Made by a program: the position numbers and the translations under genes. The notes under the pieces are model-generated. The model was given only the letters and a program-made list of their open reading frames with translations, was not told the DNA's origin and searched no databases. A stretch of DNA of 14,446 nucleotides from a virus (taxonomy: Duplodnaviria; Heunggongvirae; Uroviricota; Caudoviricetes): positions 1 through 14,446 of the IMG/VR virus record IMGVR_UViG_3300013942_000056, one strand, 5' to 3'. Below, one piece after another: positions 1 to 3,819 of the stretch (within the stretch, counting starts at the first letter, position 1; each line of letters starts with the position of its first letter).

Positions 1-706
1 CATCTCGGGAGATATCCCACTGTTGCAGGCCGGATTCAAACCATTCCTGCATTTTGTTCGCCACCTGCTCCTGCAACGCGCCGCTGCGGGTCCATGCCTG
101 CAACATTTCGCTGAAAGAAGGCAGATCAAAGAAGAAGTGTTCGGAATCACGCATTACCGGGGTAGCGCCAGAAACCACCGATTTCGGCTCGATCAATTCA
201 GTCGGGCTATATGTTGCGCCGCAGACTTCACAGTTATCGCCGTATTGATCTGGCGCTTTACATTTCGGGCAGGTGCCTTTTACAAAACGATCCGGCAGGA
301 ACATGCCTTTTTCCGGGTCGTACAACTGAGAGATAGTGCGGTTTTTAATAAAACCGTTCTCTTTCAGGCGAGTATAGATAAGCTCAGACAACTGACGGTT
401 CTCTTCGCTGTGCGTCGAGTGATAGTTGTCATAGCTGATGTTAAAGCCTGCGAAATCAGTCTGGTGTTCCTGACTCATTTCGCCAATCATCTGCTCCGGT
501 GTGATACCAAGCTGCTGTGCTTTCAGCATGATCGGCGTACCGTGGGCATCGTCGGCACAGATGAAATTAACCTCGTGGCCGCGCATTCGCTGGTAACGAA
601 CCCAGACATCAGCCTGGATGTGCTCCAGCATATGGCCGAGGTGGATTGAGCCGTTAGCGTACGGCAGCGCGCACGTCACCAGAATTTTCTTCGCGACTTG
701 GGTCAT
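1..706 (-). CDS. metG: Methionyl-tRNA synthetase, N-terminal part (3' end lies beyond window start)
   Basis: Reverse complement from 706 reads ATG ACC CAA GTC GCG AAG AAA ATT CTG GTG ACG TGC GCG CTG CCG TAC GCT AAC GGC TCA ATC CAC CTC GGC CAT = [25 protein letters not shown], the known MetRS N-terminus with the class I HIGH-type motif. The plus-strand ORFs 23..649 and 54..248 are antisense shadows of this gene. Confidence 0.95.
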
Positions 707-863: not shown

Positions 864-1964
864 ATGAGCGAGTCCAAATCGCCGGATGCCCTGAGAGCAA
901 TGGTAGCCGGTACGCTGGCTAATTTTCAGCACCCAACCCTGAAACACAACCTGACTACGCTTAAAGCGTTACACCATGTTGCGTTGATGGATGACACACT
1001 GCATGTCGAACTAATCATGCCTTTCGTGTGGAATAAGCCTTTTGAAGACCTGAAAGAGCAATGTAGTGGTGATCTGCTCCGTATCACTGGAGCAAAGGCT
1101 ATTGACTGGAAGCTGTCGTACAACATTGCCACGCTTAAGCGCGTCAAAAACCAACCAGGCATTAATGGCGTTAAGAACATTATCGCCGTCAGCTCAGGCA
1201 AGGGCGGCGTGGGTAAATCCTCCACGGCGGTAAACCTGGCACTGGCGTTGGCTGCTGAAGGTGCGAAAGTTGGTATTTTGGATGCCGATATCTATGGTCC
1301 ATCAATTCCAAACATGCTGGGCGCGGAAAACCAACGTCCAACCTCACCTGACGGTACTCACATGGCACCTATCATGTCTCATGGCCTGGCAACCAACTCT
1401 ATTGGTTATCTGGTCACCGACGACAATGCAATGGTGTGGCGTGGACCGATGGCCAGCAAGGCGCTGATGCAGATGTTGCAGGAAACTCTATGGCCTGATC
1501 TGGACTATCTCGTTCTCGATATGCCGCCGGGCACTGGTGATATTCAGTTGACGCTGGCGCAGAACATTCCTGTAACTGGTGCGGTTGTGGTAACTACGCC
1601 GCAAGACATCGCGCTGATCGATGCGAAGAAAGGCATTGTGATGTTCGAAAAAGTCGAAGTGCCGGTACTGGGTATCGTCGAAAACATGAGTGTGCATATT
1701 TGCAGTAACTGCGGTCATCACGAGCCAATTTTTGGCACCGGTGGCGCACAGAAACTGGCCGAGAAATACAACACGCAGTTGTTAGGCCAAATGCCACTTC
1801 ATATCTCTCTTCGTGAAGATCTGGATAACGGAACACCAACCGTTATTAGTCGTCCAGATAGCGAATTTACGGCTATTTATCGTGACCTCGCAGATCGCGT
1901 TGCTGCCCAAATGTATTGGCAAGGTGAAGTAATACCTGGCGAAATCGCATTCCGCGCAGTGTGA
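864..1964 (+). CDS. apbC: Iron-sulfur cluster carrier ATPase Mrp/ApbC
   Basis: 366-aa ORF with AGGAG 7 nt upstream of ATG; Walker A GKGGVGKS; Mrp/NBP35-type CxxC (CSNCGHH); near-identity over long stretches to E. coli Mrp as recalled; divergent from metG as in E. coli. Confidence 0.93.
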   Translation: MSESKSPDALRAMVAGTLANFQHPTLKHNLTTLKALHHVALMDDTLHVELIMPFVWNKPFEDLKEQCSGDLLRITGAKAIDWKLSYNIATLKRVKNQPGINGVKNIIAVSSGKGGVGKSSTAVNLALALAAEGAKVGILDADIYGPSIPNMLGAENQRPTSPDGTHMAPIMSHGLATNSIGYLVTDDNAMVWRGPMASKALMQMLQETLWPDLDYLVLDMPPGTGDIQLTLAQNIPVTGAVVVTTPQDIALIDAKKGIVMFEKVEVPVLGIVENMSVHICSNCGHHEPIFGTGGAQKLAEKYNTQLLGQMPLHISLREDLDNGTPTVISRPDSEFTAIYRDLADRVAAQMYWQGEVIPGEIAFRAV

Positions 1965-2001: not shown

Positions 2002-2391
2002 CTACATCACGGGACAATCATCAAACTCGCCACTTCTTGCGTCGTTGATAATGTGAGTGATCACACCAAACACGGCATTGCTGCCCGTGCATCCATCGTC
2101 ATCCTTTGGCAATGCTTCCTTCTTACCGGTTCTTAAATCCTCCAGATGCTGACGTGGATACTTCCGGTATCTTTTTACGCGATATTCCCCATCCAGAGCG
2201 CATACAAGCAGAGAACCATCAACCGGGGTAAGTGAGGAATCGACCACCAGCAATGCACCCTGTAATATTCCCTCACGATGATGACTATCAGCTGCCCTCA
2301 TGAAGTAGGTCGCTGAAGGATGTCTAATTATCTGCTGATCAAGAGAAATACGGCTCTCAGCATAATCCGCCGCAGGAGAAGGGAAGCCCAT
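2002..2391 (-). CDS. UmuD'-like (HumD-type) S24 LexA-family peptidase lacking the N-terminal cleavable arm
   Basis: 129 aa beginning MGFPSPAADY, matching UmuD from its Cys24-Gly25 cleavage region onward (UmuD has GFPSPAADY); conserved Ser (AADSHHREG) and Lys (EYRVKRY) catalytic dyad positions; perfect SOS box directly upstream. Confidence 0.8.
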   Translation of the reverse strand: MGFPSPAADYAESRISLDQQIIRHPSATYFMRAADSHHREGILQGALLVVDSSLTPVDGSLLVCALDGEYRVKRYRKYPRQHLEDLRTGKKEALPKDDDGCTGSNAVFGVITHIINDARSGEFDDCPVM

Positions 2392-2407: not shown

Positions 2408-2452
2408 TACTGTATATACATACAGTATATGTTGAAGCTATATATTTTTGAA
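2408..2452 (-). promoter_or_regulatory. LexA (SOS) box overlapping a sigma70-like promoter of the UmuD'-like gene
   Basis: TACTGTATATACATACAGTA at 2408-2427 (CTGT-N8-ACAG palindrome, one centre mismatch to the consensus as recalled). Minus-strand reading gives -35 TTCAAA (plus 2447-2452), 17-nt spacer, -10 TATACT (plus 2424-2429) overlapping the box. Confidence 0.8.
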
Positions 2453-2722
2453 CTCTATCTCTTAAAAAAGATGTTAATAAGATGCTAACTATTGAAAGGC
2501 ATAAATATATACAATTCCAACAAACGTTATTTTTAACAAATTTTTTCTCTCTGTTGACTTTTGCGAAAGCCTTGTCTGGCCTAAATTGCGCGGAAGCTAC
2601 TTTTTCCTTCCTGAGTTATCCACAGAGTTATGCACTTGCATGCATAACCTATACACACTATCTTAATTCGCAAGACACTGATGTTGCGGTATTGAAGGTT
2701 CATTGGGTTAAAAATAGACATT

Positions 2723-2753
2723 AAAAAGCCCAGTTGACTAGGCTGGGCTTTTT
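2723..2753. terminator. Bidirectional intrinsic terminator-like hairpin
   Basis: AAAAAGCCCAG (2723-2733), 9-nt loop, CTGGGCTTTTT (2743-2753); perfect 11-bp complementarity with A/T runs on both sides. Confidence 0.55.
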
Positions 2754-3053
2754 AAAAGGAAACAGAGTTTGCGGCTCTGTTCCTGAGCCATAAGTATCTG
2801 GCGACTGAATTAAGATTAACCGAATGTACTGGATTCATCAAGAAACGTTGAGTGGTCATACCAGGTAATAATGACCATTTACTAAACATCGTTGTTCTCA
2901 AAGAAGATTTAAGTCCAGGTTTTTGGTGACTCTAAAACCTTACCTTAACTCGAAATCGTGCCGTAAGTATCTGGCGACTACAGATATTGCAACTGCAAAG
3001 GCAAGCCCAAAGGTATTTGCAGCTAGGCGCGATAAAACTAAGTGAGGCCTGTT

Positions 3054-3137
3054 ATGGTTAACTTACTGTTCAAAATCGTGCCGCCGATGTTCGCGATTAT
3101 CAAAGCGATCATTGAGTACGTAAACCAGCGTCCATAA
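3054..3137 (+). CDS. Putative 27-aa hydrophobic peptide MVNLLFKIVPPMFAIIKAIIEYVNQRP
   Basis: ATG preceded by GAGG at 6-nt spacing; stop TAA at 3135-3137; strong hairpin terminator 14 nt downstream; below the ORF-track size cutoff. No homolog recognised. Confidence 0.3.
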   Translation: MVNLLFKIVPPMFAIIKAIIEYVNQRP

Positions 3138-3150
3138 CGCTAGTTGCTAC

Positions 3151-3175
3151 AGGCCCCATCAAGAGCATGGGGCCT
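3151..3175 (+). terminator. Intrinsic terminator hairpin after the small ORF
   Basis: AGGCCCCAT (3151-3159), loop CAAGAGC, ATGGGGCCT (3167-3175), then CTTTAT on the plus strand. Confidence 0.6.
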
Positions 3176-3192
3176 CTTTATCGTACTATTGC

Positions 3193-3819
3193 TTATTTTT
3201 TACGGACTGAGTTGTTCACTGCTCTGGCAATCTTCTCCCGCAATTGCTGCGTTCCGTGGTACTGAACCGCAATATCTCTCAACTCGTTCACCAGTTCTCG
3301 AATCTGGTGATCTTTAAGCTCATTATTTGGGTGATTGGTAACAACTCTGGTTAATTCACCCTTGTCTTTTGCTCTTACGTATGCAGCTCTTGTGCATTCG
3401 ACCCATGTATTACCGCCTACATTAACTTCGTAGATTAGGCTGGACTTATCTGTCAATTCGGAACAAATACGGGCCGTGGTCTGGCAACTAGAGCATTCGC
3501 AGTTATCGCGGAAACCGTGATCTACCGGTCGAGAAAGAGGTTTAACTTTTTCATCCAACTTCATCACAGCATCGTGATAAGCGTTCCAGCCGTCATCTTT
3601 ACCAAGTTGATAAATCTCTGAAGGCTCCATGTAGTCTATATCGCAACCTTCTTCATCCGATCTATCTGGTCGCTTCCCTGGTAATCGCTCATAAAAACAA
3701 TTTCTGTCTCGACGTTCGGCTCTCAGTGCTAACGCAAGAAGTTGCTCAAGCGAGGTATTTGCACCAGCAATAATTTCATTGAGAATATCTTCTGTGAGAT
3801 CTTTCGCTACCGTGCTCAT
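3193..3819 (-). CDS. Hypothetical phage protein (208 aa), last gene of the coupled minus-strand operon
   Basis: ATG start at 3819 forms an ATGA overlap with the stop of the upstream gene; Cys-rich stretch (CECSSC...C); no family recognised. Confidence 0.6.
   Translation of the reverse strand: MSTVAKDLTEDILNEIIAGANTSLEQLLALALRAERRDRNCFYERLPGKRPDRSDEEGCDIDYMEPSEIYQLGKDDGWNAYHDAVMKLDEKVKPLSRPVDHGFRDNCECSSCQTTARICSELTDKSSLIYEVNVGGNTWVECTRAAYVRAKDKGELTRVVTNHPNNELKDHQIRELVNELRDIAVQYHGTQQLREKIARAVNNSVRKK

What the first reader, a model, noticed from the sequence alone, without database searches (positions are those of the whole stretch)
2760..3180. Non-coding-looking region with direct repeats and a terminator-flanked 27-aa hydrophobic peptide ORF (type I toxin-like layout)
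Between two strong hairpin terminators lies a 27-aa ORF (3054..3137) with a good RBS encoding a short hydrophobic, probably helical peptide, comparable in size and character to SOS-linked type I toxins such as TisB or DinQ. The ORF shares an 11-nt exact direct repeat (AAATCGTGCCG, 2954-2964 and 3072-3082) with the upstream region, and a second 16-nt direct repeat (TAAGTATCTGGCGACT, 2791-2806 and 2964-2979) plus several hairpins (2761-2781, 2863-2887) lie upstream. If the upstream copy is transcribed antisense it would be complementary to the peptide mRNA, as in type I toxin-antitoxin pairs.
Basis: partly seen in the sequence, partly recalled or inferred. Interest (0 to 1): 0.5.

Follow-up and report, generated by a model that had tools for sequence, protein, structure and literature searches.

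The report
Unannotated small-RNA/toxin-like peptide cassette
An unannotated 460-base gap in an E. coli phage-plasmid holds a conserved 27-residue membrane-type peptide gene and a divergent small RNA that pairs with its leader, which is the layout of a type I toxin-antitoxin pair from a family not described before.

Summary
The 16-nt repeat is really 19/20 nt and is far beyond chance. The 11-nt repeat is marginal and is not conserved.

Forty-two homologous loci from Escherichia, Citrobacter, Enterobacter and Klebsiella phage-plasmids or plasmids show a compact cassette at about 2722-3180:
- **Small RNA.** An RNA of about 85 nt lies on the minus strand (2806 to 2722). It has a positionally conserved promoter, a stem-loop and a terminator.
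- **Leader.** A structured plus-strand 5' leader carries four covarying helices.
- **ORF.** The 27-aa ORF (3054-3137) is under purifying selection, with pN/pS of 0.06-0.5.
- **Terminator.** A plus-strand terminator follows the ORF.

The first 20-26 nt of the small RNA are complementary to the leader 75-94 nt upstream of the start codon. Nine of 23 intermolecular pairs show compensatory changes, and one-sided changes give G·U only in this orientation.

This is the tisB/istR-1, dinQ/agrB and zorO/orzO architecture. No known RNA or protein family is matched, and no LexA box is associated. Transcription, toxicity and repression are untested, and the mRNA promoter was not located.

Verdict: a probable new type I toxin-antitoxin family on SSU5-like phage-plasmids.

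The parts
2722..2806 (-). Predicted small RNA gene of about 85 nt (putative antitoxin), with a 5' single-stranded antisense segment, a stem-loop and an intrinsic terminator
   Evidence: It folds at -34 kcal/mol, z = -5.9. The covariance model built from it finds exactly one full-length copy (86-102 bits) on the strand opposite the ORF in 23/23 loci, including 13 found only through the peptide. The structure is 96.6% paired against 34-59% for slid controls.
2723..2753 (-). Terminator stem of the small RNA. In this E. coli lineage it is bidirectional and would also stop plus-strand transcripts coming from upstream.
   Evidence: The stem has 3 compensatory pairs and many G·U pairs that work only on the minus strand. 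In relatives the T-run is strong only on the minus strand.
2758..2783 (-). Internal stem-loop of the small RNA
   Evidence: L027 keeps it with two G·U pairs on the minus strand only. L008 and L025 have one change that favours the plus strand (my reading), so the strand evidence for this stem alone is mixed.
2787..2806 (-). Repeat copy 1, which is the 5' antisense segment of the small RNA (AGUCGCCAGAUACUUAUGGC)
   Evidence: Repeat identity ends at 2806, which is 7 nt downstream of the conserved -10 element, that is, at the predicted transcription start, in all 13 representatives.
2813..2841 (-). Promoter of the small RNA: -35 TTGATG (2841-2836), 17-nt spacer, -10 TAATCT (2818-2813)
   Evidence: The top-scoring site lies at the same position in 13/13 representatives (7.8-10.8 bits; TTGAAG/TAAGCT in most relatives). 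TTGA and TAA..T are invariant within otherwise variable sequence.
2859..2883 (+). Hairpin TGGTCAT-N11-ATGACCA between the two transcription units. It is probably part of a long primary mRNA leader, or an operator.
   Evidence: Pairing is kept by compensatory changes in L008 (AGTCAT/ATGACT) and L041 (TGGTCGT/ACGACCA), and by U·G on the plus strand in L024.
2917..2940 (+). Leader helix P1 (2917-2922 with 2935-2940), with the invariant loop UGGUGA
   Evidence: Four of 6 pairs have changes on both sides, and the G·U pairs work only on the plus strand.
2956..3032 (+). Leader helix P2 (long-range): UCGUGCC 2956-2962 pairs with GGCGCGA 3026-3032 and encloses P3 and P4
   Evidence: It is 97.3% paired in 26 distinct sequences. 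One pair has a change on both sides and four vary on one side only.
2960..2979 (+). Repeat copy 2, the target site of the small RNA in the mRNA leader. It overlaps the 5' strand of P2 and the 5' arm and loop of P3.
   Evidence: Cognate duplexes of 20-26 bp, -38 to -47 kcal/mol, start at small-RNA nucleotide 1 or 2 in 15/15 loci. The duplex is 97.3% paired, 9/23 pairs are compensatory, and 0/500 shuffles reach this.
2966..2988 (+). Leader helix P3, the target hairpin. Its loop GCGACUA is complementary to the extreme 5' end of the small RNA.
   Evidence: Four of 7 pairs are compensatory. In Klebsiella L038 both arms changed to GUUAAC/GUUAAC, and in L078 to GUGUC/GACAC.
2993..3022 (+). Leader helix P4 (CUGCAAAGGC...GUAUUUGCAG)
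   Evidence: It is 98.7% paired with almost no variation. Part of that invariance is imposed by my own search pattern.
3026..3033 (+). Box GGCGCGAT. It pairs with 2955-2962 (P2) or, alternatively, with the ORF segment 3075-3082.
   Evidence: The alternative pairing with the ORF is 79.6% paired but no better than shuffles.
3042..3047 (+). Shine-Dalgarno sequence GTGAGG, predicted to be buried in a local stem with codons 3-5
   Evidence: Mean probability of being unpaired is 0.02 in the window mRNA and 0.2-0.6 in relatives.
3054..3137 (+). 27-aa ORF MVNLLFKIVPPMFAIIKAIIEYVNQRP (peptide type B), the putative membrane toxin
   Evidence: There are 19 distinct DNA versions. pS reaches 0.75, pN/pS is 0.06-0.50, and frame and length (25-27 aa) are kept. 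The best 19-residue hydropathy window is 1.85, within the range of known type I toxins.
3151..3180 (+). Intrinsic terminator of the peptide mRNA
   Evidence: An equivalent G+C hairpin with a T-run follows the last small ORF in most relatives.

Best explanation
The gap at 2722-3180 is a self-contained two-gene cassette with the architecture of a type I toxin-antitoxin system of the divergent, 'trans-encoded in cis' kind (tisB/istR-1, dinQ/agrB, zorO/orzO, shoB/ohsC).

An mRNA of about 270-340 nt on the plus strand carries a long structured leader (helices P1-P4), a sequestered ribosome-binding site, a 27-aa hydrophobic or amphipathic peptide ORF, and a terminator. A small RNA of about 85 nt is transcribed from the minus strand just upstream. 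Because of a 20-nt direct repeat in the DNA, its first 20-26 nt are fully complementary to the leader 75-94 nt upstream of the start codon.

Shown by computation:
- the ORF is a real gene under purifying selection;
- the small RNA has a positionally conserved promoter and a minus-strand-specific terminator;
- the leader is a conserved plus-strand structure;
- the small-RNA/leader duplex is maintained by compensatory evolution in at least six sequence variants.

Inferred:
- both RNAs are made;
- small-RNA binding opens P2 and P3 and blocks translation, by occluding a standby or entry site upstream of the structured ribosome-binding site, or by leaving the GGCGCGAU box free to close a helix around the start region, and/or it triggers RNase III cleavage;
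- the peptide inserts into the inner membrane and is toxic when over-made;
- the cassette stabilises the phage-plasmid by killing cells that lose it, or acts under stress or infection.
For: Coding. There are 19 distinct DNA versions of the ORF, with pN/pS of 0.06-0.5 and near-saturated synonymous sites. A paralogous 26-28-aa peptide (type A) sits in tandem or alone at the same place in relatives.

Small RNA. The promoter is conserved in 13/13 representatives, with its -10 element always 7 nt from the repeat boundary. The covariance model finds one full-length hit on the opposite strand in 23/23 loci, 13 of them independent of the model. The structure is 96.6% paired, and its G·U pairs are valid only on the minus strand.

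Duplex. It is 20-26 bp and -38 to -47 kcal/mol in every locus. Nine of 23 pairs are compensatory, 0/500 shuffles reach this, and slid controls are 24-36% paired. One-sided differences between the two copies are A>G (17) or C>T (7) against G>A (0) and T>C (1). These give G·U only if copy 1 is read antisense and copy 2 sense. The Klebsiella locus changed 6-7 positions in both copies in parallel.

Leader. It is 96.8% paired, with 9 compensatory pairs, 0/500 shuffles reaching this, and slid controls at 33-50%.

Layout. The order of elements is identical to the K-12 dinQ/agrAB locus.

Peptide. Size, hydropathy and charge fall within the range of TisB, DinQ, ZorO and ShoB.

Mobility. The cassette occurs in different neighbourhoods: next to humD here, next to repA/repB in Citrobacter, and next to an IS3 element on an IncFIB Klebsiella plasmid.
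Against: - There is no expression, toxicity or repression data. Everything is comparative.
- No convincing sigma-70 promoter for the peptide mRNA was found in this window. The best is 4.5-5.3 bits; relatives reach 6.7-7.7 bits, but not at one aligned position.
- Blocking the target in silico does not change predicted accessibility of the ribosome-binding site.
- The alternative box/ORF helix has no covariation support, so the repression mechanism is open.
- Concerted change of two copies of a repeat could in principle come from gene conversion. Only the G·U asymmetry and the coincidence with the transcription start argue specifically for RNA pairing.
- The peptide is less hydrophobic than classical toxins (GRAVY 0.86 against 1.4-1.8) and carries two lysines and two prolines within the hydrophobic stretch.
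- Some lineages have weak or lost start codons: GTG in L011, and ATA for the type A ORF in L064.
Confidence: 0.72

Rival explanations
1. It is the same small-RNA-controlled small-protein cassette, but the peptide is not a toxin. It would be a small membrane protein with a regulatory or phage-related role, such as modulating a transporter, lysis timing or superinfection exclusion, and the small RNA merely tunes its level.
For: Toxicity is untested. The peptide is only moderately hydrophobic and has a conserved K7, P10/P11, Y22 and N24 pattern, which suggests a specific interaction. The mRNA lacks an obvious housekeeping promoter, so it could be expressed only in a phage programme. Cyrano already carries three type II toxin-antitoxin pairs for maintenance (PMC9928086).
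Against: The full architecture is so far characteristic of type I toxin-antitoxin loci: a monocistronic mRNA, a long structured leader, a sequestered ribosome-binding site and a divergent small RNA made by a direct repeat. The cassette also moves between unrelated plasmid contexts as a unit.
Confidence: 0.2
2. The leader (P1-P4) is mainly a cis-acting sensor, such as a thermosensor or a ligand- or protein-binding RNA, and that sensor controls the peptide. The small RNA would be secondary.
For: Several loop and junction sequences are almost invariant: UGGUGA in the P1 loop, the 16-nt P4 loop and the AGGCGCGA box. This is more conservation than pairing alone requires. An alternative hairpin, GGUGA/UCACC, excludes P1.
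Against: No Rfam family matches the leader, even at E up to 10. The strongest co-evolution signal in the locus is the intermolecular one. This rival does not exclude small-RNA control.
Confidence: 0.05
3. The repeats act at the DNA level, as iterons or operators for a replication or regulatory protein. The small ORF and the 'small RNA' would then be incidental.
For: In Citrobacter plasmids the cassette lies 0.6-1 kb from repA/repB. There are two copies of a conserved 20-mer.
Against: There are only two copies, 173 bp apart. In the window no replication gene is adjacent. Differences between the copies are biased to those that give G·U pairs in one orientation. The repeat ends exactly at a promoter-defined start. 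The ORF is under purifying selection. The helices show RNA-type covariation with strand-specific G·U pairs.
Confidence: 0.03

Closest known systems
dinQ / agrA-agrB (E. coli K-12 arsR-gor intergenic region)
   Same: The order of elements is the same: small-RNA terminator, small-RNA stem-loop, repeat copy, small-RNA promoter, then the toxin promoter region, a leader carrying the second repeat copy, a 27-aa ORF and a terminator. The small RNA is about 82-85 nt with a 5' antisense tail. Rfam's AgrB model gives its best, sub-threshold hit on this small RNA (27.6 bits). My small-RNA model hits AgrA and AgrB over their full length at 21.4 and 20.3 bits, against a background of 11 bits or less. A published model of mutually exclusive leader structures exists for dinQ (PMC5066626).
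   Different: The AgrB hit is below Rfam's gathering score (27.6 against 40). The leader model does not detect the dinQ leader. There is no peptide similarity and no blastn similarity to any E. coli chromosome. There is no LexA box. There is one small-RNA copy rather than two. The cassette is on a phage-plasmid rather than the chromosome. Relatives carry two tandem peptide ORFs.
tisB / istR-1
   Same: Both have a divergent small RNA that pairs about 100 nt upstream of a structurally sequestered ribosome-binding site (the standby-site mechanism, from established knowledge). Both encode a peptide of about 27-29 aa that is amphipathic and carries lysines.
   Different: There is no Rfam IstR hit and no TisB protein-family hit. 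There is no LexA control. The leader fold is different.
zorO / orzO and shoB / ohsC
   Same: Both have a long 5' leader (174 nt in zorO, PMC5397157) that is the small RNA's target, a divergent small RNA, and sequence variants that set pairing specificity (zorO/orzO against zorP/orzP).
   Different: There is no sequence similarity, even though zor and shoB loci are present in the E. coli genome collection searched. No Rfam hit was found.
hok / sok and other plasmid type I systems
   Same: Both are plasmid-borne and have a plausible role in post-segregational killing. Both have a highly structured toxin mRNA.
   Different: Sok is cis-encoded and overlaps the mok/hok start region, Hok is about 50 aa, and there is a leader ORF. 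Here the small RNA does not overlap its target and the peptide is 27 aa. No Rfam or Pfam hit was found.

Membership tests
Type I toxin-antitoxin system (class) | Small (<60 aa) hydrophobic protein gene that is a real coding sequence | tested here: met
   The 27-aa ORF has pN/pS of 0.06-0.5 over 19 distinct versions. Its best 19-residue hydropathy window is 1.85.
Type I toxin-antitoxin system (class) | Small RNA gene whose product is complementary to the toxin mRNA | tested here: met
   Promoter, terminator and structure are conserved. The duplex is 20-26 bp with 9 compensatory pairs. Transcription itself was not observed.
Type I toxin-antitoxin system (class) | Peptide is toxic when over-expressed | not testable with these tools
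   This needs inducible expression.
Type I toxin-antitoxin system (class) | Small RNA represses toxin translation or stability | not testable with these tools
   The in-silico block of the target site was uninformative.
AgrB small RNA (Rfam RF02891) / DinQ | Score at or above Rfam's gathering threshold (40 bits) | tested here: not met
   27.6 bits, E = 0.017, at 2801-2720 on the minus strand. The gathering-threshold scan found nothing.
AgrB small RNA (Rfam RF02891) / DinQ | Reciprocal similarity of the small RNA and of the toxin leader | tested here: inconclusive
   The small-RNA model hits AgrA and AgrB at 21.4 and 20.3 bits against a background of 11 bits or less. The leader model misses the dinQ leader.
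AgrB small RNA (Rfam RF02891) / DinQ | LexA box at the toxin promoter (SOS control) | tested here: not met
   The only LexA box is at 2410-2425, upstream of humD.
TisB, Ldr, Hok, Ibs, ShoB and other protein families in Pfam, NCBIfam and PHROGs | Profile match of the peptide | tested here: not met
   No family matched at E up to 10 in NCBIfam or Pfam. One PHROG of unknown function matched at E = 0.16. Profile searches have little power on 27 residues.
IstR, OhsC, OrzO, Sok, Sib, Rdl, SymR and other Rfam small RNAs | Covariance-model match on either strand | tested here: not met
   An E-value scan of 2650-3250 returned only AgrB, RNAI and terminator-driven chance hits, all below threshold.
Plasmid iterons / operators | Multiple tandem copies adjacent to a rep gene, with no strand-specific RNA signature | tested here: not met
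   There are two copies 173 bp apart and no rep gene nearby in the window. The G·U asymmetry and RNA covariation argue against a DNA-level role.

The most novel reading that the evidence does not exclude
This is a previously undescribed type I toxin-antitoxin family confined to SSU5-like and related enterobacterial phage-plasmids. One small RNA controls one or two paralogous 26-28-aa peptides through a three-way-junction leader. Its diversified small-RNA/target 'alleles' (at least six variants, with the Klebsiella one nearly orthogonal) would let related phage-plasmids addict their hosts independently, or compete with one another. It could also be a very distant, plasmid-borne relative of dinQ/agrB.
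Probability: 0.3. Interest if true: 0.6.

Novelty: new member of a known kind. Interest (0 to 1): 0.5.

Why it matters
The cassette is present but unannotated in about 2% of complete E. coli genomes (115 of 5426, mostly on phage-plasmids of about 110 kb). It is also found in Citrobacter, Enterobacter, Klebsiella and Shigella plasmids. One carrier is pLF82/Cyrano of the Crohn's-associated strain LF82.

If the peptide is toxic, this adds a type I addiction or stress module to phage-plasmids. So far these elements are reported to carry only type II pairs.

It also offers a naturally diversified set of small-RNA/target pairs for studying how antisense specificity evolves. The leader fold is well supported, which makes the standby-site and structure-switch models of toxin control directly testable.

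Finally, it is a clean example of functional genes missed by routine annotation because the ORF is shorter than 30 codons.

Tried and rejected
- **Rfam.** The gathering-threshold scan of the whole window found nothing. The E-value scan gave only sub-threshold AgrB and RNAI hits.
- **tRNA/tmRNA.** None found.
- **Protein profile libraries.** NCBIfam, Pfam and PHROGs gave no family for the peptides. The search for homologous proteins refuses queries shorter than 40 aa.
- **The 11-nt repeat as the antisense determinant.** Rejected. The ORF copy is broken by synonymous changes in relatives. Its possible role as an alternative partner of the GGCGCGAT box has no covariation support: 79.6% paired, 411/500 shuffles at least as good.
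- **A cis-antisense promoter inside the ORF (3124-3096).** Rejected. It scores no better than synonymous-codon resamplings of the same peptide in any of 19 versions.
- **A P1-type late promoter near the cassette.** No AAGTTACTT -22 box lies near it.
- **LexA/SOS control.** There is no box near the cassette.
- **Homology of the leader to dinQ.** None detected.
- **Similarity to chromosomal E. coli loci.** None at blastn sensitivity.
- **An in-silico test of a small-RNA-induced structural switch.** It showed no change in accessibility of the ribosome-binding site.
- **The sigma-70 promoter of the mRNA.** Not located convincingly.
- **Literature.** No paper holds the peptide sequences, and none describes a type I system on phage-plasmids.

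Full report
**Context.** The window is 100% identical to E. coli plasmid pMB3825A_2 and 99.9% identical to phage Cyrano (pLF82 of strain LF82). Cyrano is described as an SSU5-like phage-plasmid (PMC9928086). The finding sits in an unannotated gap at 2725-3192. On one side is humD (2002-2391, minus strand), which has a perfect LexA box at 2410-2425. On the other is a minus-strand operon of small hypothetical genes that starts at 3193.

**Observation.**
- The 16-nt repeat is really 19/20 nt (2787-2806 and 2960-2979). An exact repeat of 16 nt or more arose in 0.02% of 5000 Markov resamplings.
- The 11-nt repeat is only marginally unusual, at 3%.

**Relatives.** DNA searches found the region in 115 of 5426 complete E. 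coli genomes, at 106 plasmid and 10 chromosomal places, with no similarity to any other chromosomal locus. They also found it in 98 PLSDB plasmids from Escherichia, Citrobacter, Klebsiella, Enterobacter, Shigella and Kosakonia, 93 of them non-mobilisable. I collected loci in three ways:
- from annotated plasmids;
- with a pattern for one leader hairpin;
- independently of any RNA feature, with a profile of the peptide.

After removing duplicates this gave 42 loci, with 20 distinct combinations of the two repeat copies.

**The ORF is a gene.**
- The 27-aa ORF exists in 19 distinct DNA versions. Synonymous divergence reaches 0.75, pN/pS is 0.06-0.50, and frame and length are kept.
- Invariant residues are M1, L4, L5, K7, P10, I15, Y22 and N24.
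- Relatives carry a paralogous peptide of 26-28 aa, which I call type A (for example MQMLLLFLKLAHPVAVIIMTLLGYWKDR). It occurs alone (L004, L006) or in tandem upstream of the window-type peptide, type B (L003, L005, L007, L018, L038, L064-L079). The two ORF types align at the nucleotide level.
- Size, hydropathy and net charge fall within the range of TisB, DinQ, ZorO and ShoB, at the less hydrophobic end.
- No protein family matches. Public databases hold the peptide only as a 'hypothetical protein'.

**A small RNA on the minus strand.**
- Read on the minus strand, 2806 to 2722 folds into a mostly open 5' segment, a stem-loop and a terminator (-34 kcal/mol, z = -5.9).
- A promoter, -35 TTGATG, 17 nt, -10 TAATCT (2841-2813), is the top-scoring site at the same position in 13/13 representatives. 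Its -10 element always ends 7 nt from the end of the repeat core, so the predicted start coincides with the point where the two repeat copies stop being alike.
- In relatives the T-run after the terminator is good only on the minus strand. The terminator helix has three compensatory pairs and many G·U pairs that would be A·C on the plus strand.
- A covariance model of this RNA finds exactly one full-length copy (86-102 bits), on the strand opposite the ORF, in 23/23 loci. Thirteen of these were found only through the peptide.

**The repeat is an RNA-RNA pairing device.**
- The small RNA's 5' end is the reverse complement of repeat copy 1, so it is complementary to copy 2 in the plus-strand leader.
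- Cognate duplexes are 20-26 contiguous base pairs, -38 to -47 kcal/mol, and start at small-RNA nucleotide 1 or 2 in all 15 representatives.
- The two copies change together across lineages:
  - TAAGTATCTGGCGACT in E. coli;
  - AATGTATCTGGCGACT in most relatives;
  - ..GGCAGC in L005 and L007;
  - ..ATCCGG.. in L006;
  - ..GGCTACA in L021;
  - GTATGT.. in L078;
  - GTTGTTAACCGGCGAC in Klebsiella L038.
- Counted as an intermolecular helix over 16 distinct combinations, 97.3% of cells pair and 9 of 23 pairs have changes on both sides. No shuffle of 500 reaches this, and slid registers pair at 24-36%.
- Where the copies differ on one side, the change from copy 1 to copy 2 is A>G (17) or C>T (7), against G>A (0) and T>C (1). 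This is exactly the set that leaves a G·U pair if copy 1 is read antisense and copy 2 sense, and a mismatch in the opposite arrangement.
- This asymmetry, together with the coincidence with the transcription start, argues against plain gene conversion or a DNA-level role.

**A structured leader.**
- RNAalifold and explicit pair counting on 26 distinct sequences support four plus-strand helices:
  - P1: 2917-2922 with 2935-2940;
  - P2: 2956-2962 with 3026-3032 (long-range);
  - P3: 2966-2973 with 2981-2988;
  - P4: 2993-3002 with 3013-3022.
- Overall 96.8% of cells pair and 9 pairs are compensatory. No shuffle of 500 reaches this, and slid registers pair at 33-50%. The G·U pairs are valid only on the plus strand.
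- P3 presents the target. Its loop, GCGACUA, is complementary to the extreme 5' end of the small RNA, and its arms changed together in L038 and L078.
- The target at 2960-2979 overlaps the 5' strand of P2, so binding of the small RNA must open both P2 and P3.
- Upstream, a hairpin at 2859-2883 also keeps its pairing through compensatory changes. This suggests that the primary transcript starts before 2859.

**Mechanism: what stays open.**
- The Shine-Dalgarno sequence is predicted to be buried (probability unpaired 0.02). It lies in a stem closed by the box GGCGCGAU (3026-3033) pairing with AUCGUGCC in the ORF (3075-3082). The upstream copy is the P2 partner of the same box.
- This suggests mutually exclusive structures, as published for dinQ (PMC5066626). 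However, the box/ORF helix is no better than shuffles, it is lost in L019, L021 and L027, and blocking the target in silico changes nothing.
- I therefore rank occlusion of a standby or entry site, or duplex-triggered cleavage, as equally likely.
- I could not find a convincing sigma-70 promoter for the mRNA.
- There is no LexA box and no P1-type late-promoter box near the cassette.
- A promoter-like site inside the ORF on the minus strand is explained by codon composition.

**Comparison with known systems.**
- The order of elements is the same as at dinQ/agrAB in K-12.
- Rfam's AgrB model gives a sub-threshold hit on the small RNA (27.6 against 40 bits). My small-RNA model hits AgrA and AgrB exactly and over their full length, at 21.4 and 20.3 bits against a background of 11 bits or less.
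- The leader model does not detect the dinQ leader, the peptides are unrelated, and there is no SOS box.
- I therefore treat this as 'works like dinQ/agrB, tisB/istR-1 and zorO/orzO', not as a member of any of them. A very distant relationship of the small RNAs is not excluded.
- No paper in the library mentions the peptides or a type I system on phage-plasmids. The Cyrano paper lists only type II pairs: KacT, RelE and HicAB.

**Verdict.** This is a real, conserved and unannotated two-gene cassette. It is most likely a new family of type I toxin-antitoxin system carried by SSU5-like and related phage-plasmids. Expression, toxicity, the repression mechanism and the mRNA promoter all remain to be shown.

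Noticed in passing
window 1-706 (-) and 864-1964 (+): The phage-plasmid carries host-like housekeeping genes: metG (methionine-tRNA ligase, cut by the window edge) and apbC/mrp. The same two genes are neighbours on the E. coli chromosome. In E. marmotae plasmid L041 a der GTPase gene follows apbC instead of humD.
   Followed up: no
window 2410-2425: A perfect LexA box, CTGTATATACATACAG, lies upstream of humD (2002-2391, minus strand), as in phage P1. It is the only LexA box near the finding and it belongs to humD, not to the small-ORF cassette.
   Followed up: partly
window 2517-2640: This stretch is 75% identical to the P1 upfN/upfO region and contains a DnaA box, TTATCCACA (about 2617-2625). 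An unannotated 80-aa ORF (2482-2724) overlaps it.
   Followed up: no
window 2859-2883: The hairpin TGGTCAT-N11-ATGACCA lies between the two promoters. Pairing is kept by compensatory changes in L008 and L041 and by U·G in L024. It is either part of a longer primary leader or an operator. Relatives have different hairpins (GGAACC/GGTTCC, CAGGAA/TTCCTG) at the same place.
   Followed up: partly
window 2926-2944: The invariant P1 loop GGUGA can pair with UUACC (UCACC in relatives) just 3' of P1. This forms an alternative hairpin that excludes P1, and it is chosen in the minimum-energy folds of several relatives. It could be a metastable or processing-dependent switch.
   Followed up: no
L011/L014 (B ORF start); L064/L068/L071 (A ORF start): Some lineages have a GTG start for the window-type ORF, or ATA in place of ATG for the tandem type A ORF. 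This suggests attenuation or loss of one peptide while the small RNA and leader stay intact.
   Followed up: no
L019, L027, L062 between the small-RNA promoter and P1: Tandem direct repeats (CGGTTTAGAAC twice, plus GGAAC motifs) lie where the mRNA promoter should be. They could be a regulator-binding array. They are absent from the window lineage.
   Followed up: no
L008 (JAEWTL010000044.1): A contig labelled 'MAG: Bacillota bacterium' carries the E. coli-type cassette. It is most likely a mis-binned enterobacterial phage-plasmid contig.
   Followed up: no
L038 (K. pneumoniae NZ_CP143910.1, 261-kb conjugative IncFIB plasmid): The cassette, with A+B tandem ORFs, sits next to an IS3 transposase on a conjugative plasmid rather than a phage-plasmid. 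Its small-RNA/target sequence differs at 6-7 positions and is nearly orthogonal to all the others (-16 to -29 kcal/mol non-cognate against -47 cognate).
   Followed up: partly
window 3096-3124 (-): A promoter-like site, TTTACG-17-GATAAT, lies antisense inside the ORF. It scores no better than synonymous-codon resamplings, so it is probably a by-product of Ile, Tyr, Val and Asn codons.
   Followed up: yes
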